Positions 10,749 to 60,790 of a stretch of DNA of 60,790 bases are shown here, in pieces. Source of the DNA: Candidatus Wolfebacteria bacterium. GTDB taxonomy: Bacteria; Patescibacteriota; Minisyncoccia; UBA6257; UBA9933. The position numbers and the translations under genes are program-made. Below the pieces are notes generated by a model. That model did not search any database. It was given only the letters and a program-made list of their open reading frames with translations, and was not told where the DNA came from. How positions within the stretch are numbered: the first letter of the stretch is position 1; each line of letters starts with the position of its first letter. The stretch lies in contig JACPIO010000014.1 of the NCBI GenBank assembly GCA_016188075.1, forward strand, positions 1 through 60,790, read 5' to 3'.

Positions 10749-10789
10749 AAAAACATTCCAACATTCTATAGAATGTTGGAATGTTTTTT
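10749..10789 (+). terminator. Rho-independent terminator (AAAAACATTCCAACATTC tata GAATGTTGGAATGTTTTT)
   Basis: Perfect hairpin flanked by A and T runs, so bidirectional. Near-identical stem at 59894..59927. Confidence 0.8.
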
Positions 10790-42446: not shown

Positions 42447-42487
42447 CGATTCAATTTAAAAGGGACGCTTTGTTTATTTTATAAAAA

Positions 42488-43420: not shown

Positions 43421-43423
43421 AAC

Positions 43424-43699
43424 ATGTCTCAGGTTTTGAATTGGACACGTGAGAATATAGAATCAGTTCCAAACGGAATGGGTTTATACGTTCTTAGAAA
43501 TTTCCCCGGGTTAAATGGAATTATTTATATTGGTAAAAGCCTGACTTTAAAAAATAGACTGCTTGAGCACTACAATCTCGGAGATGTGCCGGAAGTGTTA
43601 TATTTTGATTGGTATCCTATAAATACTTCTTCGGAAATAGATAGATTAGAAAGAGAATGGATAATTCAATATAATCCTAAATATAATCAGAGAATATGA
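43424..43699 (+). CDS. GIY-YIG nuclease-domain protein (91 aa)
   Basis: GLYVLRN...GIIYIGKSLTLKNRLLEHYN. Confidence 0.65.
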   Translation: MSQVLNWTRENIESVPNGMGLYVLRNFPGLNGIIYIGKSLTLKNRLLEHYNLGDVPEVLYFDWYPINTSSEIDRLEREWIIQYNPKYNQRI

Positions 43700-43790
43700 T
43701 AGGTGATGGGTTTGTATGCCGAAGTCCCCGCAAAATGTGGGGATTTTTGGTGTTTGTTGCTAAAAAGAAAATCTGTCATAATTGTTTATT

Positions 43791-44636
43791 ATGGAGCCGT
43801 ATTACGAGAGAGATAATTTTATTTTGTATCATGGCGATAGTTTAGAGTTCTTAAAAGAATATCCAGAAAATTCCGTGGATATGGTTTTTGCGGATCCGCC
43901 ATATAACTTATCTAACGGCGGATTTAGTGTTCATGCTGGAAGGAGGGTTAGCGTTAATAAAGGAAATTGGGATAAGAGTAGAGGATTCAATGACGACTAT
44001 AATTTTCACTATGGATGGCTCGAAGTTTGTAAAAGAGTTTTGAAACCTCACGGAACGATTTGGGTGAGTGGGACCTATCACTCGATTTATCAATGCGGAT
44101 ATGCTATTCAAGCGCTGGGCTATCATATTCTGAATGATGTTTCTTGGTTCAAACCGAATGCTTCGCCTAATTTAAGTTGTCGTTTTTTTACTGCAAGCCA
44201 TGAAACTTTGATTTGGGCCAGAAAAGATAAAGAAACCAAGCACACTTTTAATTATAGTCAGATGAAAAATGGTTTTTGGCCAGATGATTTTATTAAAAAA
44301 CCAAATATGCAAATGCGGTCGGTTTGGGCGATTGGGACACCAAAAGGTATTGAAAAAAAGTTTGGCAAGCACCCAACACAAAAGCCGGAAGATTTATTAA
44401 AAAGGATTGTGCTTGCGAGTACGAACAAGGGTGATTTAGTGGTTGATCCTTTTACTGGTAGTTCAACAACTGGTATAGCAGCTTATCTTTTAGGTAGAAA
44501 ATTTATTGGCATTGATAATGAGAAAAAATATTTAGATTTATCAATCAAGCGATTTGAGGAGTTAGATAAAAATTTAAAAAATAAACTGAATTTTAAAAAT
44601 TTTAACATAAAGACGCCGAGTTATATCACAAAGTAA
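43791..44636 (+). CDS. Beta-class N4/N6 DNA methyltransferase
   Basis: Motif IV FADPPYN precedes motif I VVDPFTGSSTTG. HPTQKPEDLL. Confidence 0.88.
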   Translation: MEPYYERDNFILYHGDSLEFLKEYPENSVDMVFADPPYNLSNGGFSVHAGRRVSVNKGNWDKSRGFNDDYNFHYGWLEVCKRVLKPHGTIWVSGTYHSIYQCGYAIQALGYHILNDVSWFKPNASPNLSCRFFTASHETLIWARKDKETKHTFNYSQMKNGFWPDDFIKKPNMQMRSVWAIGTPKGIEKKFGKHPTQKPEDLLKRIVLASTNKGDLVVDPFTGSSTTGIAAYLLGRKFIGIDNEKKYLDLSIKRFEELDKNLKNKLNFKNFNIKTPSYITK

Positions 44637-44648
44637 CAATCAAAGAAT

Positions 44649-45176
44649 ATGATCGAAAAAGGTAAAGGAGGGGGAAATACTCTTACGGGACTTAATTTTG
44701 AAAGGAGAAGCGATATTTTATCTCTTATAAAAAATCTGCGTGGGTATTCTATAAAAGGCAACGTTATCTATTTTGAAAGTAAAGAAGTCGCCAAAAGTTT
44801 TAAGAAATACGGCCTTTATCGTTATTTGAAGTTGGGGGGTGTTGATTACCAAAAATATATATCTAAGCGATTAATGCCGGATGAGGCGATTTATGTAATT
44901 CGCAATAATACACTTTTTGTTATCGAGATGAAGTTTCAAAAAGTTTCTGGATCGGTGGATGAAAAACTGCAGACATGCGATTTCAAAAAGAAACAATACA
45001 AAAAATTAATGGCTCCGTTAAACATTGAAGTTGAATATATTTATATTTTGAGCGATTGGTTCAAAAAACCTGAATATAAAGATACGTTGGATTATATAAT
45101 TTCTGTTGGTTGCCAATATTATTTCCATTATTTGCCGTTACAAAAATTAGGATTACCGGTACCCGATACGAAATAG
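44649..45176 (+). CDS. Putative type II restriction endonuclease
   Basis: Immediately downstream of the methyltransferase. PDEAIYV...FVIEMKFQK fits PD-(D/E)xK. Confidence 0.5.
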   Translation: MIEKGKGGGNTLTGLNFERRSDILSLIKNLRGYSIKGNVIYFESKEVAKSFKKYGLYRYLKLGGVDYQKYISKRLMPDEAIYVIRNNTLFVIEMKFQKVSGSVDEKLQTCDFKKKQYKKLMAPLNIEVEYIYILSDWFKKPEYKDTLDYIISVGCQYYFHYLPLQKLGLPVPDTK

Positions 45177-49490: not shown

Positions 49491-49565
49491 TCCGGGGTAG
49501 TTCAGCGGTAGAACGGCGCCCTGTTAAGGCGAGAGTCGGAGGTTCGAATCCTCCCCCCGGAGCCA
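49491..49565 (+). tRNA. tRNA-Asn (GTT)
   Basis: TCCGGGG acceptor, anticodon loop CTGTTAA, T-arm GGAGGTTCGAATCCTCC, encoded CCA. Confidence 0.9.
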
Positions 49566-49573
49566 AATTGGAT

Positions 49574-49605
49574 GAGCAGAGCCAAAAGCTCTGCTTTTCT
49601 TTTTG
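49574..49605 (+). terminator. Rho-independent terminator AGCAGAGC caaa GCTCTGCT plus a T-run
   Basis: Follows tRNA-Asn. Confidence 0.7.
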
Positions 49606-49953
49606 TTTTCAGCCAAATTTTTGATACAATCGGATTGTTACGAAAATTAAAGGTTTACCCAGAATAAGCGGTTAGATTATACTCACGTAAACATGGCAAG
49701 CCATTAATAGTCTTCCACAGCCCCAATACGCCACCCGCATGGCGCATTCAGCAGGCGAAAACAGGATTTGCGCATAGTTTTAGGCCTAGATGTGTAGATT
49801 GTGGTATTTTTGTGTAGTTTTGACTATGACTTGTGTAGATTTAAAGTCCATAGTATATCTAAAGGGTGCCGATAAAACTTTTCGTGTTACACGGGGTCGA
49901 GACAACGTGCGAGGATGTTTAGCAAAAATAGAATTTTAAAAATAAAATATTTC

Positions 49954-50244
49954 ATGAAACTACAACTGGAAAAATTCGGCACCACTCTCTTATCCCGTGA
50001 ATTAGGCAGCGAGGCGTTCAAAGCGTTTCAGCCCGCCTTACTGGAATTTTCCCCGTCCGATGAATTGGAAATTGATTTTTCCGGCGTATTAACATTGCCA
50101 TCTTCATGGGCGGACGAGTTTTTGAGCCCTCTGCTTGAAAAATTAGATGAGCGGCTGGTGTTATTACCCTCTGACAATCTCTCGGTGCAGGCAACCCTAA
50201 AGATTCTGCAAGAGGCGAATAAACGCCCATTCAAATTTAGATGA
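49954..50244 (+). CDS. Small STAS-like (DUF4325-type) protein
   Basis: ELEIDFSGVLTLPSSWADEFLSPLL resembles STAS-like anti-anti-sigma folds. The track ORF starts at 49915. Confidence 0.4.
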   Translation: MKLQLEKFGTTLLSRELGSEAFKAFQPALLEFSPSDELEIDFSGVLTLPSSWADEFLSPLLEKLDERLVLLPSDNLSVQATLKILQEANKRPFKFR

Positions 50245-50502
50245 AAAGGGAGATCTTCATACTTCGCCCGGTAGTGAATGGGTTTAGGGTGCTTATCAAA
50301 GACACCCGGTTTTTTGATGTAAGCGTTGATGATGTAATGAAATAAATTTATGAGAATAAAAGATTTACCAAAAAGCATGCCCCGTAGTGAACTTGCCTGC
50401 CCCGCTGGAAGCTTGCTTTCCTGCGGGGTTCTCCTTCGGGGTCAATGCGCCACCCGGGTGGCGTATTGGAGAAAATGGGGCTTAATCTAAGTGACTATTG
50501 AC

Positions 50503-50532
50503 AAAAGAGCTTATCATATGATAAGCTCTTTT
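50503..50532. promoter_or_regulatory. 30-bp perfect palindrome AAAAGAGCTTATCAT|ATGATAAGCTCTTTT next to a TTGACA box
   Basis: Lies immediately 5' of hsdM, whose product has an N-terminal HTH. TTGACA at 50498-50503. Confidence 0.5.
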
Positions 50533-50536
50533 GTAT

Positions 50537-52333
50537 ATGGATAATAAAACACAATATATAACCACTACGGAACTGGCCAAAATGCTTGGTATCAGCCGCG
50601 TTTCCGCGGCCAAGCGGGTTACGAAGCTCATTAAAGAGGGCGCTATTACAGCTGCGGAAAGGGGCAAGGGCTACATCATAGACAAAGATTCTCTGCCTGA
50701 TGAAATAAAAGACGAAATCCGCAAACAGCAGGATGAAGCCGCTAAAAAAATCACCGAACTTGGCAAAAAAGCAGGCCACGATCTTGAATTTGAAAAAGAG
50801 CTTTGGAAGGCCGCGGATAAATTACGCGGGAGTATTGATGCCTCCGAATACAAGCACATTGTTTTGGGTCTTTTATTTTTAAAGTATGTTTCTGATTCCT
50901 ACTATCAGCGGCGCTGGCAGTTGGAGCAATGGACGAGCGATCCGAAAAACAGGGACTATTTTATAAAAAACGAGGCGGAGAGAAAACATATCATCGGCGA
51001 TAAGGACCAGTACAAGAGCGCCGGAGTTTTCTATATTCCGGAAAAATCCCGATGGGAGCAGTTGCGAAATCACGCGATGCACCATGACATCGGAAAATAC
51101 ATTGATGAGGCGATGGAAGTGATTGAAAACGAAAACCCGAAGGAATTGAAAGGCGTATTGCCGAAAATTTACACAAAAACTACTCTGGACTATCAAATTC
51201 TCGGCGAGCTAGTAAATATTTTTTCAAAAATCAAATTTGACCACGATATAGACAAAGAAAAGGACATCCTTGGCCGCGTGTACGAATACTTTTTGGGGCA
51301 GTTCGCTTCCGCCGAAGGGAAAAGAGGCGGAGAGTTCTATACTCCGCGCTCCATTGTTCGACTTTTGGTTGAAGTATTATCGCCGTATGAAAACGCTCGT
51401 GTCTTTGATCCTGCTTGCGGGTCGGGCGGAATGTTTGTGCAGTCCAACGAGTTCTTGAAGATGCACCAAAAGGACCCGACTAAAATTTCGTTCTTCGGGC
51501 AGGAAAGCAACCCGACAACGCTTCGGCTTTGTAAGATGAATCTTGCCATCCGAGGCATCATCGGCCAAATGGAAATCGGAAATTCCTATTATGATGATAA
51601 ATTTCCAGACCTTCGCGCGGACTTCGTGCTTGCCAATCCTCCTTTTAACGCTGACTGGGAACCGGACCGGCTTTCTGACAAAGACCCGCGCATTAAATTC
51701 GGCACGCCGCCCGGAAGCAACGCCAACTTTTTATGGATTCAGCATTTTATTCATCATCTTTCGCCCAACGGAATGGCAGGTTTTGTTATGGCAAATGGGG
51801 CACTTGCAGTAGGTGGGCGTGAGGGCGAGATACGCAGAAAAATTATTGAAGAAGATTTGGTTGATGTGATTATCGCCTGTCCGCCGAAACTTTTTTACAA
51901 TGTCGCGCTTCCTGTTTCTCTCTGGTTTGTGTCTAAAAACAAAAAAAATGGTAGATTCCGAAATCGCACCGGTGAGACGCTTTTTATAGACGCGCGCGAG
52001 ACATTTGAGCAGATTTCCCGCAAGCAGGTTACATTCACTAAAGAACAAATAAAAAAAATCGCGGGTACAGTTCGCGCATGGCGTGGCGAAGTGGGCGCGG
52101 ATAAATACGAAGACATCGCTGGTTTCTGCAAAGGAGTCAAAAAAGAAGAAATCGCCAAAAACGGCTATGTCCTCACCCCCGGCCGGTATGTTGGCGTTGC
52201 GGAAGAAGAAGACGACGGGGTGCCGTTTGAGGAGAAAATGGCCGTATTAAACAAAGATTTGAATAAATACTTTGAAGAAGGTCGAAAATTAGAGATAGAA
52301 ATTAAAAGTAATTTAACCAAATTAAATATATGA
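50537..52333 (+). CDS. hsdM: Type I R-M methyltransferase subunit with an N-terminal HTH extension
   Basis: LWKAADKLRG..YKHIVLGLLFLKY, GEFYTPRSIV, DPACGSGGM, LANPPFN. The first about 80 aa are HTH-like (TTTELAKMLGISRVSAAKRV). Confidence 0.92.
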   Translation: MDNKTQYITTTELAKMLGISRVSAAKRVTKLIKEGAITAAERGKGYIIDKDSLPDEIKDEIRKQQDEAAKKITELGKKAGHDLEFEKELWKAADKLRGSIDASEYKHIVLGLLFLKYVSDSYYQRRWQLEQWTSDPKNRDYFIKNEAERKHIIGDKDQYKSAGVFYIPEKSRWEQLRNHAMHHDIGKYIDEAMEVIENENPKELKGVLPKIYTKTTLDYQILGELVNIFSKIKFDHDIDKEKDILGRVYEYFLGQFASAEGKRGGEFYTPRSIVRLLVEVLSPYENARVFDPACGSGGMFVQSNEFLKMHQKDPTKISFFGQESNPTTLRLCKMNLAIRGIIGQMEIGNSYYDDKFPDLRADFVLANPPFNADWEPDRLSDKDPRIKFGTPPGSNANFLWIQHFIHHLSPNGMAGFVMANGALAVGGREGEIRRKIIEEDLVDVIIACPPKLFYNVALPVSLWFVSKNKKNGRFRNRTGETLFIDARETFEQISRKQVTFTKEQIKKIAGTVRAWRGEVGADKYEDIAGFCKGVKKEEIAKNGYVLTPGRYVGVAEEEDDGVPFEEKMAVLNKDLNKYFEEGRKLEIEIKSNLTKLNI

Positions 52334-53352
52334 ACGAAAGACCAAGCGAAATAAACGATCAAAATGTTCTTACTGCAGATATAGAATCTATTGCTCAAGA
52401 TAGAAGATTTGATGAGCTAAAGTTTGAGAATGCAAAGGATAAATTAAGCAAGGTTCAAAAATGGCTTGTTGAAGCAAAAGAGCTAAATTTTGAAAAGCTT
52501 TTAATATCAGAAGATATAACTCGAATATCAGATATTAAAAATCAGCTAATAAAATACCTGCAAGATCTTTTAACTTTTGATAATAGGACAACAAGAGAGA
52601 ATGCTAAACAAGAACACGATAGTTTAGAAAACCAGGTTGAAAAATATTATAACGGGGCGTATCAACATATCGCGATGCGCATTCTTCCGTTTTTGAGGCA
52701 GGAAGTGGCTAGAAGTAGTGAAGATGCCAAAGAACTTGAGAAACGACAAAAATCCGCATCCCAAGCTGAAAAAAAGTATAAGGAGTTGTCCGAAAAATTA
52801 GAAACACGATTTCAAGAATTAGATCAGCAAGAGAAAGAACTTGATGAGAAAAAGAAACAAGTAGAGTCGGGGCATGGCGAGCTTGCCGCAGTACGTCTTA
52901 CCAAGCACTTTCAAGGAGAAGCTGATAATTATGCAGAACTATCGAACAACTGGTTAAAAATAAGATCTAAATTTTACTGGGGCATTATAATCATAATTCT
53001 TATATTGGCAGCTATTTATTTTTATGTCGGATGGGAAAAGATTTCTTTACAGTTGGGAGTTGCAAAAATAATATTTTTGTCTGCCCTGTGGTATGGATTA
53101 GCTTTTGCCACTCGCAATTATAACATCAACTCTCATTTAGCAGCCGTAAATAGACATCGGGCAGCAGTTGCGCGTACCCTCGAAGATTTTCTAGAATCGA
53201 ACCCAGAAAGAAAATCAGAGATGTTAAAAAATGCCACCGAAGCCATGTTCAAACATGCACCGATTGGTTTTGTTACAAAAGCGGAAAAAGATTCCGGAAA
53301 CCCTCTTTTTGAGATTATAAATAAAATTATTAATCCGAGGGACGGTCAATAG
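52330..53352 (+). CDS. Coiled-coil protein with two C-proximal TM helices (R-M-embedded)
   Basis: The start overlaps the hsdM stop (ATGA). Long E/K-rich helix, then YWGIIIIILILAAIYFYVGW and IIFLSALWYGLAFA. Confidence 0.6.
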   Translation: MNERPSEINDQNVLTADIESIAQDRRFDELKFENAKDKLSKVQKWLVEAKELNFEKLLISEDITRISDIKNQLIKYLQDLLTFDNRTTRENAKQEHDSLENQVEKYYNGAYQHIAMRILPFLRQEVARSSEDAKELEKRQKSASQAEKKYKELSEKLETRFQELDQQEKELDEKKKQVESGHGELAAVRLTKHFQGEADNYAELSNNWLKIRSKFYWGIIIIILILAAIYFYVGWEKISLQLGVAKIIFLSALWYGLAFATRNYNINSHLAAVNRHRAAVARTLEDFLESNPERKSEMLKNATEAMFKHAPIGFVTKAEKDSGNPLFEIINKIINPRDGQ

Positions 53353-53358
53353 TGATTT

Positions 53359-53424
53359 ATGAATCAAACAATTAAAGATACGACTTGGCGGAAGGTGAAG
53401 TTGGTAAGAAAAATTTATGAATAA
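53359..53424 (+). pseudogene. Remnant of an hsdS 5' end
   Basis: MNQTIKDTTWRKVKL... parallels the hsdS N-terminus MKTNIKTTWWKVKL. 23 of 25 nt are identical (53380-53404 versus 54261-54285). Confidence 0.5.
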
Positions 53425-54253
53425 CATACAGATTGAGCAATTCGATAAGCGACTCAGAGAGCTTGGTAAATTTACCCAAGACCGTGACGGTGGCTACAAA
53501 GAAACGGAAATCATCGACTGGATTGCTGATTGCACAAACCTTTTCTATGAAGTTGGGGTTGATTCTGTGGCAATTCGCCACTTTTTGGATTACTTCAATT
53601 TTAGGATTGAAGAAGTAAAAATTAATAATGACATGGTTATATTCCCAGGCCATAATGACCGTTTTGAAAAAGTAAGGGTCATAGGCCCTTTTCAGGAGGA
53701 GTATAACGATGATGGTTTCTTTCGCCGCAAAACGGGGAATTATATTTTGGCGGGTAGCTTCTATTATGCGAGGGTTGCTTTTTCAGCAGCAAAAAATACC
53801 CTGAAAAGAAAAATCGAAGAAAAGAGACTTGTGCCTTTCTGGCTTGTTGAACAAACAGCGACTCAAGACAAACTCAAACATCTTACCTCATCGTTAGAGT
53901 TGATTGAAAATAAATATGAACAAAGGGATGCTCACGGCCTTGTCACAGAATCTATCACCCTACTGGATAGTGTTTTAAATTTAGATGAGGATTTGAAAAC
54001 AAAAGACAGTATAGGAGGTAAATTAAACTCATTAATTGAGAATGAATCGAAGCGCCAATCTTTTGGTGTAAGCAGAGATTTAGTTGTGGGTCTTAACAGC
54101 GGCCGAATCTTAAGAAACGAGAAAGTGATTCACAAAGAAGCACCGCTGAAATACGAAATACCTTTTTTGATCGCCACGAGTTTTGCGTATTTGGTTTTAT
54201 TTTTTGTAGAGTGTGCCATTTTAAATGGAAAAGTTATTCATTATGAAAACTAA
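53417..54253 (+). CDS. Hypothetical protein with a HEPN-type motif (R-M-embedded)
   Basis: 278 aa. C-terminal GRILRNEKVIH fits R-[NDH]-x(4-5)-H. Confidence 0.55.
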   Translation: MNNIQIEQFDKRLRELGKFTQDRDGGYKETEIIDWIADCTNLFYEVGVDSVAIRHFLDYFNFRIEEVKINNDMVIFPGHNDRFEKVRVIGPFQEEYNDDGFFRRKTGNYILAGSFYYARVAFSAAKNTLKRKIEEKRLVPFWLVEQTATQDKLKHLTSSLELIENKYEQRDAHGLVTESITLLDSVLNLDEDLKTKDSIGGKLNSLIENESKRQSFGVSRDLVVGLNSGRILRNEKVIHKEAPLKYEIPFLIATSFAYLVLFFVECAILNGKVIHYEN

Positions 54254-55478
54254 TATCAAAACAACTTGGTGGAAGGTGAAGTTGGGAGAATTTGCAAACA
54301 TAAACCCAACGGTTCAGCTTCAACGCGGCAAAGAGTATTCATTTTTGGATATGGCGGATGTCACGCCGCTTTCGCGCACAACAAACTGGCAAAAGCGGAA
54401 AATTTTCAAAGGTTCCGGGGCGAGATTTGAAGAGGGCGACACTCTATTTGCTCGCATTACTCCTTGTTTAGAGAATGGAAAGATAACGCAAGCTCAAGAG
54501 CTAAAAAGTCCCGCGTTCGGATCAACTGAATTCTATGTATTACGTGGCATACAAGGTGTATCTGACAGCGACTTTATTCATTATTTATCTCGCACATTCC
54601 GTATCCGAAAACTAGCCGAAGGAAGCATGGTTGGTGCTTCTGGTCGTCAGCGTGTAGAACGCGTTGCTTTTGAAAATATAGAGACAGAAGTTCCAGAAAG
54701 TCTAGAGATCCAAAAACGCATTGCGGACATTCTTTCCGCTTTTGATGACAAGATTGAACTGAACAATAAAATCAGCAAAAATTTGGAGGCAACGGCGCAG
54801 GCGATTTTTAAGGAGTGGTTTGTAAATTTCCGTTTTCCCGGCCATGAAAAAATAAAAATGATTGATTCTGAATTGGGGGAAATTCCAGAGGGGTGGGGGG
54901 TGAAAATGTTGCCCGAGGTTTTTGATTTTCTTGAAGGGCCTGGCATTAGAAACTGGCAATATGCCCCAGAGGGGTGCCGCTTCATCAACATTCGTCTTAT
55001 CCAAAATAATGATATAGACATTAAGTCAGCAAATTCCATTTCAGAAAAAGAAGCAAATGGAAAATATAAACATTTTCACCTTCAAGAGCGAGATATGGTC
55101 GTATCAACATCAGGAACGCTTGGAAGATTGGCCATCGTTAGAGAAGAACACCTGCCATTATTACTTAACACCTCGGTCATTAGATTTAAGCCAAAAGATA
55201 AGCAGAACTACGGCTTTATGTACCAATTCCTAAATTCCGCTTACTTCCAAAACAAGGTATTAAGTATGGCATCAGGAAGCGCACAACCAAACTTTGGCCC
55301 AGTACACTTAAAACAAATTGAGGTGCTTATGCCGGACAAGAGCATATTGGGTACTTTTGGAAGTTCGGTAAATTCAATTTACGAAAGAATCATCGCCATT
55401 AAATCAGAAAACCAAAAATTAGCCGCGCTCCGCGATTTGCTTTTACCAAAGTTAATGAGTGGGGAGATTCTTGTTTAA
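54243..55478 (+). CDS. hsdS: Type I R-M specificity subunit
   Basis: Two TRD halves with conserved spacers (ILSAFDDKIELNNKI...; LAALRDLLLPKLMSGEI). The track ORF starts at 54225. Confidence 0.9.
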   Translation: MKTNIKTTWWKVKLGEFANINPTVQLQRGKEYSFLDMADVTPLSRTTNWQKRKIFKGSGARFEEGDTLFARITPCLENGKITQAQELKSPAFGSTEFYVLRGIQGVSDSDFIHYLSRTFRIRKLAEGSMVGASGRQRVERVAFENIETEVPESLEIQKRIADILSAFDDKIELNNKISKNLEATAQAIFKEWFVNFRFPGHEKIKMIDSELGEIPEGWGVKMLPEVFDFLEGPGIRNWQYAPEGCRFINIRLIQNNDIDIKSANSISEKEANGKYKHFHLQERDMVVSTSGTLGRLAIVREEHLPLLLNTSVIRFKPKDKQNYGFMYQFLNSAYFQNKVLSMASGSAQPNFGPVHLKQIEVLMPDKSILGTFGSSVNSIYERIIAIKSENQKLAALRDLLLPKLMSGEILV

Positions 55479-55481
55479 ATT

Positions 55482-56444
55482 ATGAAATCCCGACATCAAA
55501 TTTTATTGGATAATTCAATTTCAGCCACACTTGCTGGAATTGAGATTTATAACAAGCCGATTTTTTCAAATAGAGAAGCTAGTTTCTGTTTTCAAATTGT
55601 GAATGCCTGGGAACTTTTGCTAAAGGCAAAAATCCTCAAAAACAATCGTAATCAACTTAAACATATCTATAAATACGAGGGACGATTTATTAAACGAAAT
55701 CGATCCAGTAACCCAATGACCATTGGCATTTATGAGGCATTTGGGAAAATAAGAAATCTTGACACGCGAATCAAGAGTAATCTTGAGGAATTAATAGCTA
55801 TTCGTGACGCCGCTACTCATTTTTATTACAAATCAAAAGCACTTCCGTATTTGGTGTTTACGCTCGGCACAGCAGCATTAAGGAATTACGAAAAATGTTG
55901 TCGCGATTGGTTTTCCACAAATCTAGATAAATATAACTTCTACATTTTGCCGATAGGGTTCGGTTATACATTTCAAACCTTTTCTAAACTTACTACGCGA
56001 GACGAAACAGAAGAAATAGCAAACATTATGCGTTCTGTTTCAAAAAAACAATCGCGCTTAAAGTCGGCATCACCTACGGATTTTCAGTTTATCTGCGAGA
56101 TTAAAATTCAAACAGTTTCGGTCAAGAAAGCGAAGGACGCCGACATAGTTGCAAGTATTGATAGTAGCGGGGCAGACGCTCAATTTATAGAACGCGAGGT
56201 TAATAAATTAGACAAATATCCATATACTTTTAGGCAGATTCTAGCTGAGGCAAAGAAACAAAAGAATATCAAACCAAATAAATTATCAAGTTTTATAAGA
56301 GAGCGGAACATTAAGGACAATCCGGCATATCACGACTATACCTACCGAAGCAAGAAACACGAATCAGAAAATAAACCATCTTCTGATATTTATAACTACG
56401 CCTTTTTGCAATTAGTAATTAATGATCCGTACTTTAAATCATGA
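55482..56444 (+). CDS. Hypothetical protein with a HEPN-type motif (R-M-embedded)
   Basis: Starts 3 nt after the hsdS stop, and its stop overlaps the hsdR start (ATGA). IAIRDAATHFYY fits R-D-x3-H. Confidence 0.55.
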   Translation: MKSRHQILLDNSISATLAGIEIYNKPIFSNREASFCFQIVNAWELLLKAKILKNNRNQLKHIYKYEGRFIKRNRSSNPMTIGIYEAFGKIRNLDTRIKSNLEELIAIRDAATHFYYKSKALPYLVFTLGTAALRNYEKCCRDWFSTNLDKYNFYILPIGFGYTFQTFSKLTTRDETEEIANIMRSVSKKQSRLKSASPTDFQFICEIKIQTVSVKKAKDADIVASIDSSGADAQFIEREVNKLDKYPYTFRQILAEAKKQKNIKPNKLSSFIRERNIKDNPAYHDYTYRSKKHESENKPSSDIYNYAFLQLVINDPYFKS

Positions 56445-59400
56445 AAAAACTTAACGAAGACACACTAACCGAACAGCCGGTCATAGAGTGGTTCAAGGAG
56501 ATGGGCTATGACCACGAAAAAGGGCCTGACATAGCGCCTGGACAAATTACCGGCGAGCGCGAGGACTTTCGCGAGGTAGTTTTGGTTGGACGGCTTAAGC
56601 GGTATATTCGTCGTCTCAATCCTGATTTACCGGAAGCCGCTATTGATGATGTCGCGCGGAGTTTGAAATCAGAACATCCGAATTTGGAAATCGCGAATAA
56701 AGAAATTTATACTATGCTGACGCAAGGTGTGCGCGTTAATTTTCGGGGCGCGGACGAAGAAGATATTTGGCGATTCGCGAAAATTGTTGATTTTGATAAC
56801 CCCCAGAATAATGAATTTCTTGTCATCAATCAATTCGCGATTCAGGGATCGGAAAAGGTTCGCCGACCGGATGTGGTTGTTTTTGTAAACGGAATCCCGC
56901 TTGCGATTTTCGAACTCAAAAACCCAGCGCTTGAAAATGCGACAATCTACACTGCCTATGAGCAGCTGCGGGAGTATAAAAAAGATATTCCGGAGATCTT
57001 CAAATACAATCAGGTACTTGTTGTTGGCGATTTAATTGAAGCGAGACACGGCACAATTTCATCGTCGTGGGAGTGGTTTTCGCACTGGAAAGGCATTGAA
57101 AGCGAAGATGAGCAGAATCACGGCATTTCTGAGCTTGAAACCTTAGCGCGAGGAATTTTTCATAAAATTCGATTTTTGGATATTGTCCGGAACTTTATTA
57201 TTTTTGAGGCCGATGCCGAAAAAGACGCAAGTAAATTCACAAAAAAGATGGCAATGTACCATCAATACTTTGGCGTAAACAAAGCCGTGAATGAGACTTT
57301 GCGCGCCGCAAAGCCGAGGGGAAATAAAAAAATCGGTGTTTTCTGGCATACGCAAGGATCGGGCAAATCGCTTTCAATGGTTTTTTATACAAACAAAGCC
57401 AAGCGGTTGGAAGAATTAAAAAGCCCGACATTTGTATTTTTGACTGACAGAAACGATCTTGATGGACAGTTTTATAAAACATTTTTGCGAAGTGGCTATC
57501 CAAGCGCGAAGCAAGCGGAAAGCGTCACTGGATTGAAAGAAAGATTACGCGAAGCGGCCGGCGAACTTATTTTTACGACAATTCAGAAATTTGATACTGA
57601 ATATGAGGTTTTGAGCGAACGAGAAAATATCATTGTTATTGCGGACGAAGCGCATCGCTCGCAGTATGCGAAATTTGCTGGCAATGTCCGAGTTGCTTTA
57701 CCGAACGCCTCGTTCATGGGCATCACGGGTACCCCGATAAGTCTGCAAAATCGCGAAACGCGACTTGTATTTGGAAACCACATCAGCGAATACAAGATAA
57801 ACCAAGCCGTAGAAGACGGCGCAACCGTTCCGATTTATTACGAAGGTCGCCTCGTGCCTTTGCATCTGGCGAATCAATTTATTGATGAGGAGTTTGAGGA
57901 CTTGACCGGCGAGATAGAATTTGAGGCAAAAGAAGTGTACAAGCGTAAATGGGCGCGACTTGAGCAAGCCGTAAGCGCAAAAGATCGTCTGGAGCAAGTG
58001 GCAAAAGATATAGTTTCGCATTTTAACAATCGCGGGCTTGAGGGAAAAGGAATGATTGTGACAATTTCGAGAAAGACGGCGGTTGAGATGTATAAAATAA
58101 TTTCAAAGTTATTGAGCGCGCCCGCCTACGCCGACCTGCGCTTCGCCGATGGCTCCATCAAGGCGAGGGCTTCGGCGGGCAAGCCGGAAGTGGCGGTTGT
58201 TATTTCAAAACCGGAAGATTTTCCGGAACTTCATCAAAGCAGAGATACAAAAGAGCTGGAAAAAAGATTTAAAAATCCCGATGACTCATTGAAACTCGTG
58301 ATTGTATGCGATATGTGGTTGACCGGCTTTGATGTTCCTTCGCTTCACACTATGTATATTGATAAGCCGCTCAAAAATCATACCTTGATGCAAGCGATAG
58401 CTCGCGTCAATAGAATTTTTAAGGACAAGCCCGGCGGTCTTATCGTGGACTATATTGGAATTGCTGACGATCTAAAGAAAGCCCTCTCAATTTATAGTTC
58501 AGGCATACAGAAGGAGGCAATGATACCGATTGAGGAAATTATTGCCAAGATGATGGAAAAATACGATATCGTTCGCGCGATGTTTGCTGGCGTTGAATAC
58601 AAGGAATGGAAGAAGCTGAAAGGCTCGGACCTGGCGCAGCTATTTCAAAAAGCGGTCAATACGATTATCACGAACGAAAGAAGCGGAATGGTTGATGATG
58701 AACAGAAAAAACGATTTGCGAAAGAAACAGAACTACTCTCACAGCTTTTTGCATTTGCTATGCCGCACAAGGAAGCAAACGCCATACGAAATGAAGTTGA
58801 ATTTTTCCAAGCAGTGAAGCGTGCGGTTATTAAACGGATAATCATCCAGCCCGAAGGCATTGGGTTTGATATTGAATCTGCTGTACGAGAGCTTGTTTCC
58901 AAGGCCATATCTGCCGAGGGAGTCATTGATATTTTTGACATGAAGGGCAAAGGAAGGCCGGACATTTCTATTTTTGATGAGAAGTTTTTGGAAGAGGTGA
59001 AAAATCTGAAGTACAAGAATCTTTCCGTGGATGTGCTTCGCAAACTCTTGAATGATGAGCTCCGAGTGAGGATGAGGAAAAATCTGGTTCGTTACAAATC
59101 GCTTCTTGATATGTTGGAAGATATAATTGAAAAATACGAAAACAACATCATCAATTCCACGAAAGTTATTGAGAAACTGATTGAATTGGCAAAGGAAATC
59201 CGGAAGGTTGAGAAACAGGGCGAAGGCATCGGCTTGTCAGAGGAAGAAATGGCGTTTTATGATGCGATATCCGTCGGACGCAAAGCAATCAACGGAAATG
59301 GAAAATTTAAGGAATTGGTACGCGAGCTTGTAAAAATCATCAAGAGAGATTTGGCGATTGATTGGATGAATAATGATATAATCAAAGCGAGGATTCGTGC

Positions 59401-59521
59401 GAATGTTAAGCTGCTATTGTTACGAAAAGGATACAAGGCGGAAGAAAGCGAAAAGGTTTTAGATTTGATATATCAACAAGCATTTTCATTGTACAGAGAT
59501 TTTGTGCCAGCTATGGCGTAA
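56441..59521 (+). CDS. hsdR: Type I restriction enzyme R subunit
   Basis: RPDVVVFVNGIPL nuclease region, GSGKS, VIADEAHRSQ, GITGTPI, QAIARVNR. Confidence 0.95.
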   Translation: MKKLNEDTLTEQPVIEWFKEMGYDHEKGPDIAPGQITGEREDFREVVLVGRLKRYIRRLNPDLPEAAIDDVARSLKSEHPNLEIANKEIYTMLTQGVRVNFRGADEEDIWRFAKIVDFDNPQNNEFLVINQFAIQGSEKVRRPDVVVFVNGIPLAIFELKNPALENATIYTAYEQLREYKKDIPEIFKYNQVLVVGDLIEARHGTISSSWEWFSHWKGIESEDEQNHGISELETLARGIFHKIRFLDIVRNFIIFEADAEKDASKFTKKMAMYHQYFGVNKAVNETLRAAKPRGNKKIGVFWHTQGSGKSLSMVFYTNKAKRLEELKSPTFVFLTDRNDLDGQFYKTFLRSGYPSAKQAESVTGLKERLREAAGELIFTTIQKFDTEYEVLSERENIIVIADEAHRSQYAKFAGNVRVALPNASFMGITGTPISLQNRETRLVFGNHISEYKINQAVEDGATVPIYYEGRLVPLHLANQFIDEEFEDLTGEIEFEAKEVYKRKWARLEQAVSAKDRLEQVAKDIVSHFNNRGLEGKGMIVTISRKTAVEMYKIISKLLSAPAYADLRFADGSIKARASAGKPEVAVVISKPEDFPELHQSRDTKELEKRFKNPDDSLKLVIVCDMWLTGFDVPSLHTMYIDKPLKNHTLMQAIARVNRIFKDKPGGLIVDYIGIADDLKKALSIYSSGIQKEAMIPIEEIIAKMMEKYDIVRAMFAGVEYKEWKKLKGSDLAQLFQKAVNTIITNERSGMVDDEQKKRFAKETELLSQLFAFAMPHKEANAIRNEVEFFQAVKRAVIKRIIIQPEGIGFDIESAVRELVSKAISAEGVIDIFDMKGKGRPDISIFDEKFLEEVKNLKYKNLSVDVLRKLLNDELRVRMRKNLVRYKSLLDMLEDIIEKYENNIINSTKVIEKLIELAKEIRKVEKQGEGIGLSEEEMAFYDAISVGRKAINGNGKFKELVRELVKIIKRDLAIDWMNNDIIKARIRANVKLLLLRKGYKAEESEKVLDLIYQQAFSLYRDFVPAMA

Positions 59522-59538
59522 AAATCGTCGACAAAATT

Positions 59539-59889
59539 ATGACTCTCATTCTCATCTCCATAATTATTTTTCTGGCCGCGGCGGTTGTGGCGCTGGTTGT
59601 TTTCGCGCGCAAAGAGGCGGGGAAACACGGCACAAGCGTGAAGGAAGAATTTGTCGGGATCTGCGCCTCGGCCATTGAAACGGCTTCGCAGAAGGAGGCT
59701 CGCAAGGAAAGCGCGCTCGCGTATCTACGCTCGCGCGGTGAGCTTTCCAACTCCGAAATCCGCAAAGCGCTTGGTGTTTCCAGCCGTACAGCCGTGCGCT
59801 ATCTGGACGAATTGGAGGCGGAAGGAAAAGTGGAACAGGTCGGCAAAATCGGCCACACCGTCACTTATCGTCTAAAACACACCGCCTAG
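59539..59889 (+). CDS. Membrane-anchored winged-HTH protein
   Basis: N-terminal TM helix. SNSEIRKALGVSSRTAVRYLDELEAEGKV. Confidence 0.55.
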   Translation: MTLILISIIIFLAAAVVALVVFARKEAGKHGTSVKEEFVGICASAIETASQKEARKESALAYLRSRGELSNSEIRKALGVSSRTAVRYLDELEAEGKVEQVGKIGHTVTYRLKHTA

Positions 59890-59893
59890 AATA

Positions 59894-59927
59894 AACATTC
59901 CAACATTCTGCAGAATGTTGGAATGTT
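59894..59927 (+). terminator. Hairpin AACATTCCAACATTC tgca GAATGTTGGAATGTT
   Basis: Same stem as 10749..10789. No T-run here. Confidence 0.5.
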
Positions 59928-60138
59928 GCGAATACGCCACCCGCCTGGCGTATTGAGAGCGAGGTGCTCCCTCCAGAAGCGGGCAGGCACCACGGAGGAC
60001 CCCAGTAGTAGAGCGCAAAGCGTTCACTACGGGGCAAGGATTAAAATTGTGGAAAATAAATAAAATTATGAATAATCAAAACTCAAAAAAATATTTGCTT
60101 CAGTTTTAGTCCGTCCAATGAAGTGATAATATAAGCTC

Positions 60139-60369
60139 ATGATCCTGAAAGAAAACAATTTTGCATACATAGACGGCGCGAACTTGCACAAAGGTGTGGC
60201 TGGTTTAGGCTGGAGGTTAAATTACAAACGATTCAGAGTGTGGCTGTCTGAAAAATATGGAGTGCGCGCCGCATATCTCTTCATGGGGCTCATACGTGCC
60301 CATTTAGAGCTTACCCAAAAAGAAAAAGCCCCCGGCGGGGACGGAACCCCGCAAGGGTCTTTTTCGTGA
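60139..60369 (+). pseudogene. Truncated NYN/LabA-like (PIN-fold) gene
   Basis: FAYIDGANLHKGVAGLGWRLNYKRFRVWL matches NYN N-termini. The ORF ends after 76 aa in unrelated sequence. Confidence 0.45.
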
Positions 60370-60613
60370 GTATTACTTGTAGTATAGCAAGTGCTCGGTA
60401 GAAGTCAATAGTTTTCCACAGGCGGTAAATATAGGGAGTAAATCTATGGAAATCGAAACCAAACAACCCCATACCAGTTCGCTACGGGGCATGCTTTCCG
60501 CATAAAGTCATCGGCGGACTCTCGCCGGCAGAGAAACTTTTAGAACACCATCAATCCCACAAATAACATCCTTATAAACTGGAGTTTGTAAGGATGTAGT
60601 GTATAATGAAATT

Positions 60614-60790
60614 ATGGCGAAAATGAAAACAGCAAAACAAATGGAGCGGCATTTAAAGGGAATGGCCAACCATTATCGCATTGAAATACTGCTTCTCGTT
60701 GCGCAGCGTGACGGTATAACGTTGGAAGATGTTGTCGATACACTTGGTGCTAATGAAAAAACGATCGGTGAACACACACGCCGGCTCTAT
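60614..60790 (+). CDS. ArsR-family HTH regulator (partial, runs off the window)
   Basis: LKGMANHYRIEILLLVAQRDGITLEDVVDTLGANEKTIGEHTRRLY. TATAAT at 60602. Confidence 0.6.
   Translation, partial: MAKMKTAKQMERHLKGMANHYRIEILLLVAQRDGITLEDVVDTLGANEKTIGEHTRRLY

What the first reader, a model, noticed from the sequence alone, without database searches (positions are those of the whole stretch)
50371..60496. The type I R-M operon is bounded by inverted repeat modules downstream of tRNA-Asn
- Left end: aagcatGCCCCGTAGTGAACt at 50373-50393.
- The same 21-mer is inverted at 60476-60496 (one mismatch), and its 14-nt core is inverted at 60022-60035.
- A degenerate copy (cgCCCGGTAGTGAAt) lies at 50265.
- A 24-nt hairpin, AATRCGCCACCCGnnTGGCGTATT, sits just inside both ends (50444-50467 and 59931-59954) and once more at 49725-49748.
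- The enclosed 9.6 kb holds the R-M operon plus a wHTH gene. A truncated NYN gene lies between the two right-hand copies.
- I see no transposase or integrase.

This architecture fits a non-autonomous, trans-mobilised cassette, or a recombination hotspot that exchanges defence cargo.
Basis: seen in the sequence. Interest (0 to 1): 0.7.

Follow-up and report, generated by a model that had tools for sequence, protein, structure and literature searches.

The report
Dispersed hairpin repeats flank restriction operon
The inverted repeats around this restriction-modification operon are real, but they are copies of short hairpin elements found between genes in many Parcubacteria (ultra-small, uncultured bacteria), so they mark junctions in a patchwork variable region next to tRNA-Asn rather than the ends of a mobile cassette.

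Summary
The 21-mer, its inverted copies and the 24-nt hairpin lie where stated and are far beyond chance.

The cassette interpretation is not supported.
- The 24-nt hairpin (P1) occurs in 78 genomic stretches from many Parcubacteria lineages. It is mostly intergenic and sits next to tRNAs, housekeeping genes and accessory genes.
- The 21-mer is one arm of a local ~40-nt hairpin (H2). H2 also lies beside 5S rRNA, at a trmD 3' end and in small ORFs in other metagenomes. The single T/C mismatch covaries with the local partner arm.
- Two further palindromes (P2, P3) belong to the same mosaic. P2 also lies between the convergent core genes maf and dcd at 10.7 kb.
- Each flanking module belongs to a neighbouring small-gene unit found in distant genomes, and several of these units are remnants here.
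- Fourteen contigs with HsdM 84-90% identical carry no exact P1 or H2 core.
- There is no target-site duplication. Two relatives diverge at the tRNA-Asn 3' end, not at the repeats.

Best reading: the operon is cargo in a tRNA-Asn-proximal variable region whose junctions carry REP/BIME-like palindromes. The recombination-hotspot alternative is plausible. The trans-mobilised transposon is not.

The parts
49491..49565 (+). tRNA-Asn (GTT). Its 3' end is the left synteny breakpoint of the variable region.
   Evidence: ARAGORN; Rfam. L002 and L085 diverge from the window at 49566.
49574..49606 (+). Canonical intrinsic terminator after the tRNA. Logan contigs L001 and L003 end at 49599.
49725..49748 (.). 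P1 palindrome, copy 1 (loop CCCGCA). It is the left edge of the MerR-like/DUF4325 module, as in L030.
49760..49939 (+). TGTGTAGATT-type iterons, then only the last 28 codons of a MerR-like gene (an internally deleted remnant).
   Evidence: 71% identity to aa 212-239 of the 239-aa L064 protein, E = 5e-13
49915..50244 (+). DUF4325 (STAS-like) gene, partner of the MerR-like gene. It is 78-85% identical in four distant Parcubacteria loci.
50266..50312 (+). Degenerate H2-like arm followed by a terminator-like hairpin with a T-run, downstream of DUF4325.
50350..50374 (+). Remnant of the radC start (ATGAGAATAAAAGATTTACCAAAAA). Similarity to radC ends where the 21-mer begins.
   Evidence: L024 RadC confirmed by Pfam UPF0758_N, 4e-26.
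50369..50451 (+). H2 hairpin, left copy.
   Evidence: 33.7 bits, E = 7e-8; this copy was not in the training set
50444..50467 (.). P1 palindrome, copy 2 (perfectly palindromic loop CCCGGG).
50489..50530 (+). hsdM promoter with the palindromic operator CTTATCATATGATAAG. It is conserved with related R-M operons and belongs to the cargo.
50531..52333 (+). hsdM with an N-terminal HTH fusion.
52330..54253 (+). Two genes of unknown function (340 aa and 278 aa) embedded in the operon.
   Evidence: the 340-aa protein has weak LmuB/LeoBC-like matches only
54225..55478 (+). hsdS
55482..56444 (+). DUF3644, which matches the PADLOC candidate defence gene PDC-S19.
56441..59521 (+). hsdR. The right end of the R-M cargo lies at 59522-59538, where other genomes carry a P2 palindrome upstream of the wHTH gene.
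59539..59889 (+). Membrane-anchored wHTH gene. It is followed by P2 or P3 and then P1 in the window and 8 of the 11 other loci with a homologue (P1 alone in two, no palindrome within 100 nt in one).
59894..59927 (.). P2 palindrome (AACATTCCAACATTCTGCAGAATGTTGGAATGTT).
   Evidence: (I14)
59931..59954 (.). P1 palindrome, copy 3 (loop CCCGCC).
59991..60045 (-). H2 hairpin, middle copy. Together with P2 and P1 it forms the upstream region of the NYN gene. It is ~95% identical to L036 2600-2740 outside a 31-nt gap in L036.
   Evidence: 54 bits
60139..60369 (+). Truncated NYN gene (76 aa; intact homologues are 194 aa).
60446..60564 (+). Small ORF that contains the right-most H2 copy (60455-60500, minus strand, with the inverted 21-mer at 60476-60496). 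The conserved C-terminal peptide is in the +1 frame relative to the ATG.
60566..60597 (.). P3 palindrome, immediately upstream of the ArsR-family gene and followed by TGTATAAT.
60614..60790 (+). 5' part of an ArsR-family gene, cut by the contig end. ArsR-TspO is a conserved pair elsewhere, so this is probably core genome and the right edge of the variable region.
10752..10785 (.). A second P2 palindrome, with a T-run, between the convergent core genes maf and dcd. It shows that P2 is not specific to the island.

Best explanation
The type I R-M operon, from its own promoter at about 50489 to the hsdR stop at 59521, is cargo inside a variable, patchwork region. That region runs from the 3' end of tRNA-Asn (49566) to the P3-ArsR core genes (about 60566). 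The genome belongs to the Parcubacteria group and is close to a Magasanikbacteria MAG.

The 'inverted repeat modules' are not ends of the operon. They are mosaics of four families of short palindromic or hairpin elements:
- P1: 24-28 bp, TC-AATACGCCACCCGGGTGGCGTATT-GA
- H2: ~40 nt, (AAGCAT)GCCCCGTAGYGAAC-loop-GTTCTRCTAC(T)GGGGT
- P2 and P3: 32-34 bp

These elements are dispersed through intergenic DNA of many Parcubacteria. Each cluster in the window belongs to a neighbouring small-gene unit:
- Left: the 3' flank of a MerR-like/DUF4325 pair plus a radC start.
- Right: the 3' flank of a wHTH gene, the upstream region of an NYN gene, and a small ORF.

The inverted appearance arises because hairpin elements of the same sub-family happen to lie in opposite orientations.

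*Shown:* family membership, dispersal, local pairing with covariation, module homology, gene remnants, and absence of the exact repeat cores from related operons.

*Inferred:* the elements act locally as DNA or RNA hairpins, that is as transcript-end, terminator or insulator structures and possibly as protein-binding sites. As dispersed homology or fragile palindromes they promote deletion and module swapping, so cargo such as this R-M operon is gained and lost by recombination rather than transposition.
For: **P1 is generic**
- P1 occurs in 78 stretches from many lineages: Sung-, Yanofsky-, Niyogi-, Harrison-, Giovannoni-, Wolfe-, Kaiser-, Nomura-, Doudna-, Portnoy- and Staskawicz-bacteria among others. 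One genome holds up to about 8 copies.
- 78 of 90 copies are intergenic.
- Copies sit next to tRNA or tmRNA genes and next to housekeeping and accessory genes.
- The first two flanking base pairs usually extend the stem, and inner pair 14:31 is AU in 68 copies, GC in 8 and GU in 5.

**H2 is a local hairpin family**
- 91.9% of cells are paired. The T/C position of the 21-mer pairs as UA in 9 sequences and CG in 7, with none unpaired.
- The exact 21-mer lies just downstream of 5S rRNA (L099-L101), at a trmD 3' end (L096) and in small ORFs (L097, L098).
- The covariance model finds 8 strong copies in the P1-centred loci.

**P2 is generic**
- P2 also lies between maf and dcd at 10752.
- P2 brackets ArsR and wHTH genes in arrays, for example at least five copies within 3.2 kb in L036.

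**The modules belong to neighbouring genes**
- The right module is ~95% identical to the NYN upstream region in L036.
- Window 50350-50374 matches the radC start at 23 of 25 positions.
- Window 49853-49939 corresponds to the last 28 aa of a MerR-like gene.
- Homology to the wHTH unit starts at its ATG, where other genomes have P2.

**Related operons lack the repeats**
- Fourteen loci with HsdM 84-90% identical have no exact P1 or H2 core.
- Operon DNA that is 99.5-100% identical lies in three different contexts without terminal repeats.

**The region is variable**
- L002 (99.6% identical upstream) and L085 (identical tRNA-Asn) each carry different DNA from position 49566 onward.

**No transposon or classical island signatures**
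- There is no target-site duplication.
- There is no repeat of the tRNA 3' end in the window.
- There is no recombinase.
Against: - The two outer copies share 7 extra bases (AAAGCAT) beyond the H2 core and match at 21 of 22 positions. All P1 and H2 copies in this 60.8 kb lie in the island. A specific relation to this locus, or a local inverted duplication, is therefore not excluded.
- The contig ends 300 bp after the right-most copy, so the right-hand synteny breakpoint is inferred from other genomes (L097, L036) and not seen in a close relative.
- P1-containing longer repeats do bracket small gene groups elsewhere: L065 has a 128-nt inverted repeat and L044 a 105-nt direct repeat. That pattern also fits a cassette mechanism.
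- One 90%-identical HsdM contig (L105) has an H2-family hairpin upstream of hsdM.
- No transcript, protein-binding or recombination data exist. The function of the elements is inferred.
Confidence: 0.6

Rival explanations
1. Positions 50373-60496 form a discrete non-autonomous element with 21-22 bp terminal inverted repeats and sub-terminal hairpins, and a transposase encoded elsewhere moves it.
For: - The 22-bp inverted repeat is 95% complementary and its arms lie 10,082 bp apart.
- The same H2-then-P1 order occurs at both ends in inverted orientation.
- Similarity to the radC start stops exactly where the left repeat begins.
Against: - There is no target-site duplication.
- The 21-mer is a dispersed ~40-nt hairpin found beside 5S rRNA and trmD, not a cassette end.
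- Each copy pairs with a local partner arm, and the pairing covaries.
- The right-hand modules are the native flanks of the wHTH, NYN and small-ORF genes.
- No second copy of the unit was found, and 14 related operons lack the exact repeat cores.
- No cognate transposase was found.
Confidence: 0.05
2. P1, and perhaps P2 and P3, are core sites for an unidentified site-specific recombinase. P1 has the 11-6-11 geometry of dif/attC-type sites. On this reading the region downstream of tRNA-Asn is an array of cassettes delimited by P1 (49725 | 50444 | 59931). The array would resemble integron cassettes or the Acinetobacter pdif modules.
For: - P1 has invariant arms and a variable central 6 bp.
- P1 sits at both edges of the MerR-like/DUF4325 unit in the window and at its left edge in L030.
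- Different cargo follows the same junction in different genomes.
- A 105-nt direct repeat (L044) and a 128-nt inverted repeat (L065), each containing P1, bracket 2-kb gene groups.
- P2 brackets single small genes in arrays.
- Diverged duplications of 20-63 nt of gene ends bracket H2 or P1, like the att scars of elements that carry a copy of their target.
Against: - No recombinase recurs next to the sites, and none is in the window.
- Many copies lie between core genes or after tRNAs, where a hairpin with A and T runs looks like a bidirectional terminator.
- The loop orientation of P1 relative to the wHTH gene flips between genomes.
- P1 lacks the dif consensus (ATAA-N6-TTAT) and the attC features. 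These consensus sequences are from my own knowledge.
- The cargo of the P1-bracketed segments elsewhere is ordinary metabolism.
Confidence: 0.15
3. The palindromes are purely cis-regulatory and play no part in genome plasticity. P2 and P3 would be operators of the conserved ArsR-family and wHTH regulators, forming a small regulon. P1 and H2 would be RNA hairpins. Their arrangement around the operon would then be incidental.
For: - P2 or P3 lies 0-30 nt upstream of the ArsR, wHTH and TspO genes and of an unannotated 331-aa ORF, and about 120 nt upstream of NYN.
- In the window P3 is followed by TGTATAAT and then the ArsR ATG.
- The regulators and the palindromes are conserved together.
- The H2 stem covaries.
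Against: - P2 also sits between convergent core genes, where no promoter is expected.
- Gene remnants and duplicated gene ends cluster at the elements.
- P1, P2 and H2 in the island lack the T-run of intrinsic terminators.
Confidence: 0.12
4. The two AAGCAT-H2 copies result from a local inverted duplication, or from an inversion between H2 copies, that happened to span the operon. On this reading the inverted repeat is a by-product of rearrangement and not an agent of mobility.
For: - The two copies match at 21 of 22 positions, including 7 bases outside the family core.
- Orientation flips of hairpin loops occur between genomes.
Against: - The same AAGCAT prefix occurs in unrelated contexts in six metagenome contigs, so it marks a sub-family.
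- The right-most copy and its flanks are conserved as a unit with L097.
- No inversion breakpoint can be reconstructed.
Confidence: 0.08

Closest known systems
REP / BIME elements (repetitive extragenic palindromes and their mosaics) of Enterobacteria and Pseudomonas
   Same: - They are short imperfect palindromes (24-40 nt), almost all extragenic and present in several copies per genome.
- They are clustered in mosaics of different units with alternating orientation.
- They often lie at the 3' ends of genes.
- They can serve as terminator-like or mRNA-stabilising hairpins and as substrates for rearrangement.
   Different: - Copy number is low, about 4-10 exact P1 copies per roughly 1-Mb genome.
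- The sequence is nearly identical across many candidate phyla, whereas REPs are species- or genus-specific.
- No RAYT-type transposase was seen near them.
- Some copies lie inside small ORFs or next to duplicated gene ends.
MITEs and other non-autonomous elements with terminal inverted repeats and target-site duplications
   Same: A 22-bp inverted repeat pair lies at the outer edges of a 10.1-kb segment that has no transposase.
   Different: - There is no target-site duplication and no second copy of the unit.
- The 'terminal repeats' are individually complete hairpin elements found alone elsewhere.
- The cargo, at 10 kb, is far larger than a MITE.
Integron attC cassette arrays and Acinetobacter pdif (XerC/D) modules
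   Same: - Imperfect or perfect palindromes of fixed geometry delimit single genes or small gene groups.
- Different cargo follows the same junction in different genomes.
- pdif modules are likewise bracketed by sites in inverted orientation and have no recombinase of their own.
   Different: - There is no integrase, attI site or Pc promoter.
- P1 and P2 lack the attC R/L boxes and the dif consensus.
- The sites also occur between core genes and after tRNAs.
- No recombination was shown.
tRNA-adjacent genomic or defence islands, and the variable hsd 'immigration control region' of E. coli
   Same: - A type I R-M operon with embedded accessory or defence genes lies directly downstream of a tRNA gene.
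- Relatives carry different content at that position.
- A second R-M-like island lies after tRNA-Val in the same window.
   Different: - There is no integrase.
- There is no direct repeat of the tRNA 3' end within the contig.
- The island is a patchwork of small modules and remnants separated by palindromes.
Neisseria DUS pairs and Correia elements
   Same: A conserved short sequence occurs as an inverted pair that forms terminator-like hairpins downstream of genes, in organisms thought to depend on DNA uptake.
   Different: - There are orders of magnitude fewer copies.
- No over-representation of the single half-site was tested.
- No target-site duplication or IHF site like those of Correia elements is present.

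Membership tests
Non-autonomous TIR transposon / MITE-like cassette | Terminal inverted repeats at both ends | tested here: met
   The 22-nt inverted repeat 50372-50393 / 60476-60497 is 95% complementary.
Non-autonomous TIR transposon / MITE-like cassette | Target-site duplication directly flanking the terminal repeats | tested here: not met
   The flanks ...gatttacca | ... | ccgcataaag... share no duplicated bases.
Non-autonomous TIR transposon / MITE-like cassette | The same unit occurs at other sites with different flanks, or empty sites exist | tested here: not met
   The 21-mer scan of metagenomes returned only short hairpins in unrelated contexts. Fourteen related operons lack the exact repeat cores. 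Relatives diverge at the tRNA, not at the repeats.
Non-autonomous TIR transposon / MITE-like cassette | An autonomous partner with matching terminal repeats and a transposase | tested here: inconclusive
   None was found in the window or in any fetched locus. Whole genomes were not available.
REP/BIME-like extragenic palindromes | Short imperfect palindrome able to form a stem-loop | tested here: met
   Folds. H2 has 91.9% of cells paired, with one pair showing complete UA/CG covariation. For P1.
REP/BIME-like extragenic palindromes | Extragenic location and several dispersed copies per genome | tested here: met
   78 of 90 P1 copies are intergenic. One Yanofskybacteria MAG has up to about 8 copies on 3 contigs.
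REP/BIME-like extragenic palindromes | Clusters or mosaics of different units in alternating orientation | tested here: met
   P2-P1, P3-P1 and H2-P1 composites recur in at least 10 loci.
REP/BIME-like extragenic palindromes | Associated RAYT (Y1) transposase flanked by the repeats | not tested
   No such family appeared among the recurrent neighbours. Genomes were not searched for RAYTs.
Integron cassette array | intI integrase with attI and the Pc promoter next to the array | tested here: not met
   There is no integrase in the window or among the recurrent neighbours.
Integron cassette array | attC sites with R''/L''/L'/R' boxes (RYYYAAC ... GTTRRRY) and extrahelical bases | tested here: not met
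   P1 has none of these boxes. P2 contains TTCTAAC ... GTTAGAA (6 of 7 each) but is a perfect 34-bp palindrome. This was judged by inspection; the consensus is from my own knowledge.
dif/pdif (Xer) modules | 28-bp site made of two 11-bp arms and a 6-bp centre that matches the dif consensus | tested here: inconclusive
   The geometry fits (TCAATACGCCA-CCCGGG-TGGCGTATTGA). The conserved ATAA-N6-TTAT of dif, recalled from my own knowledge, is absent. The dif site of Parcubacteria is unknown.
dif/pdif (Xer) modules | Recombination by XerC/D at the sites | not testable with these tools
   This needs biochemistry or population read data.
Integrase-mediated tRNA-linked genomic island | Insertion at the 3' end of a tRNA gene, with variable content among relatives | tested here: met
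Integrase-mediated tRNA-linked genomic island | Integrase gene, and a direct repeat of the tRNA 3' end at the distal border | tested here: not met
   There is no integrase. There is no second copy of the last 23 nt of the tRNA at <=3 mismatches. The contig ends at 60790, so a more distal repeat cannot be excluded.
Type I restriction-modification system | HsdM, HsdS and HsdR in one operon | tested here: met
   Pfam. PADLOC MTase_I at 9e-160 and REase_I at 7e-280.

The most novel reading that the evidence does not exclude
P1, P2/P3 and H2 are the cis sites of a gene-exchange system shared across the Parcubacteria. Small accessory and defence modules (R-M, MerR-like/DUF4325, NYN, Fic, Panacea antitoxins) would be inserted, swapped and deleted at these conserved palindromes. 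The agent would be an unidentified host recombinase or a hairpin-specific nuclease. Each event would leave duplicated gene ends (5S rRNA, trmD, radC) as scars. This would be a functional analogue of integrons or pdif modules in ultra-small bacteria that otherwise have few recognisable mobile elements.
Probability: 0.13. Interest if true: 0.8.

Novelty: new variant of a known kind. Interest (0 to 1): 0.4.

Why it matters
**For the finding as written.** The result is deflationary. The operon is not a repeat-bounded mobile cassette. It is ordinary defence cargo in a tRNA-proximal variable region.

**What emerged on the way may be of some use.**
- A small set of palindromic elements keeps almost the same sequence across many candidate phyla of the Parcubacteria group.
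- These elements cluster at the junctions of small accessory-gene modules.
- They are sometimes bracketed by duplicated gene ends.

**Why this could matter.**
- Candidate phyla radiation (CPR) bacteria have tiny genomes and few recognised mobile elements or known regulatory signals.
- Conserved intergenic elements of this kind could serve as markers of module boundaries.
- They are candidate terminators or operators for a group whose transcription signals are undescribed.
- They offer a testable lead on how defence genes are exchanged in these organisms.

Four full-text searches found no description of them.

Tried and rejected
**Searches that found nothing**
- Rfam at gathering and at permissive thresholds on both repeat clusters gave only tRNA and noise.
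- Viral-contig scans for an 18-mer sub-pattern of the 21-mer (CATGCCCCGTAGYGAACT), for P1 and for P2 gave 0 hits each. The elements are therefore cellular, not phage-borne.
- Exact-protein look-ups for the DUF4325 gene and the NYN fragment, meant to extend the contig, found nothing on record.
- Other Logan contigs of the same organism are short. They stop at 49565/49599 and inside P2 at 59920.
- No target-site duplication was found by inspection, and no repeat of the tRNA 3' end was found.

**Ideas considered and dropped**
- *The 21-mer as degenerate radC coding sequence (MPRSEL against RPREKL).* tblastn gives E of about 0.4-1. Only the first 25 nt are convincingly radC.
- *The sequence after the right-most copy (..SPAEKLLEH..) as the continuation of radC, which would have made 50373-60496 a clean insertion.* This was rejected. 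The stretch is the conserved C-terminus of a separate small ORF shared with L097 and L098.
- *The three MPRSE-starting small ORFs over the 14-mer as real genes.* This was rejected as a by-product of identical DNA.
- *Terminal repeats on the near-identical P0003-type operons.* Their boundaries were examined and none was found.

**Lost analysis**
The Python machine was lost. The planned statistics on T-runs and flank pairing were replaced by the count of structure pairs.

Full report
**1. Observation**

- The core GCCCCGTAGTGAAC is exact at 50379-50392 (+) and 60022-60035 (-). It has one mismatch at 60477-60490 (-) and two at 50266-50279 (+). No shuffle gave as many hits.
- The outer pair extends to a 22-nt inverted repeat, 95% complementary (I7).
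- The hairpin AATRCGCCACCCGNNTGGCGYATT occurs at 49725, 50444 and 59931, against an expectation of zero.
- Pfam shows the enclosed genes to be HTH-HsdM, two unknown proteins, HsdS, DUF3644, HsdR and a wHTH protein. No transposase or integrase is present.
- tRNA-Asn lies at 49491-49565.

The window is the whole contig of 60,790 bp. The right-most repeat is therefore only 300 bp from the end of the available sequence.

**2. The 24-nt hairpin (P1) is a generic Parcubacteria element**

- A scan of one genome per species found the exact pattern in 78 stretches. Nearly all come from MAGs of the Parcubacteria/Paceibacterota radiation: Sung-, Yanofsky-, Niyogi-, Harrison-, Giovannoni-, Wolfe-, Kaiser-, Nomura-, Doudna-, Portnoy- and Staskawicz-bacteria, among others. 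Many genomes hold several copies.
- 78 of 90 copies are intergenic by a simple ORF map.
- Copies lie directly after tRNA or tmRNA genes, between housekeeping genes, and next to accessory genes (SocA/Panacea, RhuM-Fic, NYN, Schlafen-like helicase, MerR).
- In an 85-copy alignment the palindrome extends to TC-P1-GA. The next flank positions pair in 52-68 of 85 copies, through different base pairs.
- Some copies have A-runs before and T-runs after the stem, like bidirectional terminators. The three copies in the window do not.
- P1 was not found in viral contigs or in Rfam.

**3. The 21-mer is one arm of a dispersed ~40-nt hairpin (H2)**

- Each copy in the window folds with a partner a few bases away.
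- Sixteen copies from the window, the P1 loci and metagenomes align as (AAGCAT)GCCCCGTAGYGAAC-loop-GTTCTRCTAC(T)GGGGT.
- 91.9% of cells are paired. The local hairpin, not the 10-kb-apart pair, is therefore the conserved unit.
- The exact 21-mer occurs in six metagenome contigs. Three copies lie just downstream of 5S rRNA (Rfam). One is at a trmD 3' end. Two are in a small ORF homologous to window 60433-60616.
- A covariance model recovers the left copy, which was not in the training set, at E = 7e-8. It finds no further copy in the first 49 kb. It finds eight strong copies in the P1-centred loci.

**4. Two more palindromes belong to the same mosaics**

- P2 (59894-59927) and P3 (60566-60597) are conserved across the same lineages.
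- P2 also lies at 10752-10785 between the convergent core genes maf and dcd, where it carries a T-run.
- In L036, P2 copies separate nearly every gene over about 3.2 kb. ArsR genes are bracketed by two P2 copies in at least four genomes.
- P2-P1 and P3-P1 pairs with 2-5 nt spacing recur in more than ten loci.

**5. The flanking modules belong to neighbouring genes, not to the operon**

*Left side*
- P1 at 49725 is followed by iterons and only the last 28 codons of a MerR-like gene (E = 5e-13). The gene is intact in L030 and L064, upstream of the same DUF4325 gene (78-85% identical).
- Positions 50350-50374 match the start of radC at 23 of 25 nt. The L024 RadC is confirmed by Pfam. The match stops where the 21-mer starts.
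- Downstream of the same DUF4325-radC' junction other genomes carry an intact radC (L024, after a P1) or RhuM-Fic (L030, no P1).

*Right side*
- The wHTH gene recurs in 11 other loci (58-87% identical). In 8 of them, and in the window, it is followed by P2 or P3 and then P1; two show P1 alone and one shows no palindrome within 100 nt.
- In other genomes a P2 precedes the wHTH ATG. In the window, hsdR ends 17 nt before it.
- Window 59895-60065 is ~95% identical to the region upstream of an intact NYN gene in L036, outside a 31-nt gap in L036. The window's NYN gene is truncated to 76 aa.
- The right-most H2 sits in a small ORF that L097 also has. In L097 this ORF is followed by P3, a SWIM gene, P3, ArsR, P3, TspO and mnmA.

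The true cargo limits are therefore about 50468-50489 and 59522-59538. The variable region as a whole runs from 49566 to about 60566.

**6. Comparative test of the cassette idea**

- HsdM has many homologues at 70-90% identity.
- Fourteen contigs with 84-90% identical HsdM were fetched. None contains the exact P1 pattern or the exact H2 core.
- One of them, L105, has a divergent H2-family hairpin upstream of hsdM in an otherwise unrelated upstream region.
- Operon DNA that is 99.5-100% identical occurs in three different contexts. It has a sharp left breakpoint about 340 bp upstream of hsdM and no terminal direct or inverted repeats.
- What is conserved with the operon is its promoter and operator, TTGACA...CTTATCATATGATAAG.

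Operons of this family therefore change place, but not by means of these repeats.

**7. The region is variable**

- A conspecific Logan contig (L002, 99.6% identical upstream) and a Magasanikbacteria MAG (L085; flanking protein 81% identical, tRNA-Asn identical) both diverge from the window exactly after the tRNA. Each carries different genes there.
- Two other conspecific contigs end at 49599, just after the tRNA terminator.
- There is no copy of the tRNA 3' end elsewhere in the window.

**8. Interpretation**

The evidence fits REP/BIME-like palindromes that sit at module junctions in a patchwork island. The remnants (the MerR-like gene, radC, NYN) and the missing P2 upstream of the wHTH gene are consistent with deletion or replacement at or near these elements.

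Elsewhere the same elements are bracketed by diverged duplications of the adjacent gene end: the 5S rRNA 3' end, the trmD 3' end and the radC 5' end. Longer repeats containing P1 bracket 2-kb gene groups in direct (L044) or inverted (L065) orientation.

These features keep alive a more interesting reading in which the palindromes are recombination sites. However, no recombinase was found, and many copies lie between core genes. I rate that reading at about 0.13-0.15, and the transposon-like cassette at about 0.05.

**9. Limits**

- The contig ends at 60790.
- The loci were retrieved by exact pattern, so the conservation of the P1 core is partly imposed by the search.
- Gene maps of the loci rest on ORFs only.
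- The script machine was lost.
- The function of the elements is inferred, not shown.

Noticed in passing
window 42087-45176: A second island lies directly after tRNA-Val(cac), with low GC (0.32-0.35). It encodes an N6/N4 DNA methylase (5e-58), a GIY-YIG protein, and weak Mrr-like and PD-(D/E)XK nuclease matches. The relative L085 lacks it, going from tRNA-Val straight to MacB. It carries none of the P1, P2, P3 or H2 elements.
   Followed up: partly
window 60446-60564 (also L097 4630-4743, L098 1931-2129): This small ORF spans the right-most H2 hairpin. The ATG frame gives MEIETKQPHTSSLRGMLSA*. The +1 frame after the hairpin (..VRYGACFPHKVIGGLSPAEKLLEHHQSHK*) is the one conserved with mostly synonymous or conservative changes in two other contigs. 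Only L098 has an in-frame ATG. Possible explanations are a +1 frameshift, a non-canonical start, or an H2 insertion into a small gene.
   Followed up: partly
window 50489-50537; L086 9960-10000: The hsdM promoter carries a perfect palindromic operator (aaagagCTTATCATATGATAAGctcttt) between TTGACA and TATATGG. The operator is conserved in related operons, and HsdM has an N-terminal HTH fusion. This suggests controller-protein-like autoregulation by the methylase itself.
   Followed up: partly
window 55482-56444: The DUF3644 gene between hsdS and hsdR matches the PADLOC candidate defence family PDC-S19 (3.5e-63). Related operons carry other genes at this and neighbouring positions: PemK toxin, NYN, an RNase H-like RVT_3 protein, or an unannotated ORF.
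   Followed up: partly
L086 9664-18754, L087 5126-14216, L090 3825-12940: A related type I R-M operon (HsdM 89% identical to the window's) is 99.5-100% identical at the DNA level in three different genomic contexts. It has a sharp left breakpoint about 340 bp upstream of hsdM and no terminal repeats.
   Followed up: partly
L099 5096-5288; L096 110-280; L024 388-591: Copies of H2 or P1 are bracketed by diverged (71-90%) direct duplications of 20-63 nt of the adjacent gene end: the 5S rRNA 3' end, the trmD 3' end and the radC 5' end. They look like scars of elements that carry a copy of their target.
   Followed up: partly
L065 2123-4296; L044 2077-4535: In one Yanofskybacteria MAG, a 128-nt inverted repeat (90%) with P1 at its outer ends brackets 1.9 kb next to tRNA-Leu. 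A 105-nt direct repeat (96%) with P1 brackets 2.35 kb that encodes a HAD hydrolase, an unknown protein and a uridine-kinase-like protein.
   Followed up: partly
L036 1830-4982: This is an array in which P2 palindromes separate nearly every small gene. The order is P2, wHTH, P2, P1, a 50-aa acidic ORF, P3, P2, H2, NYN, P2, a 331-aa ORF, P2, ArsR, P2, TspO. ArsR genes are bracketed by two P2 copies in at least four genomes.
   Followed up: partly
L056 2491-2543: An H2 hairpin sits immediately 5' of a sequence that looks like a tRNA 3' end (..GGGGTTCGATTCC..CCCACCA). ARAGORN does not call a tRNA there. It may be a disrupted or unusual tRNA gene.
   Followed up: no
window 49760-49850; L030 4190-4270: Three or four iterons (TGTGTAGATT in the window, TGCATAGATTT in L030) lie between P1 and the MerR-like gene. 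They are probably its operator. The MerR-like N-terminus matches PADLOC mad1 (2.6e-14).
   Followed up: no
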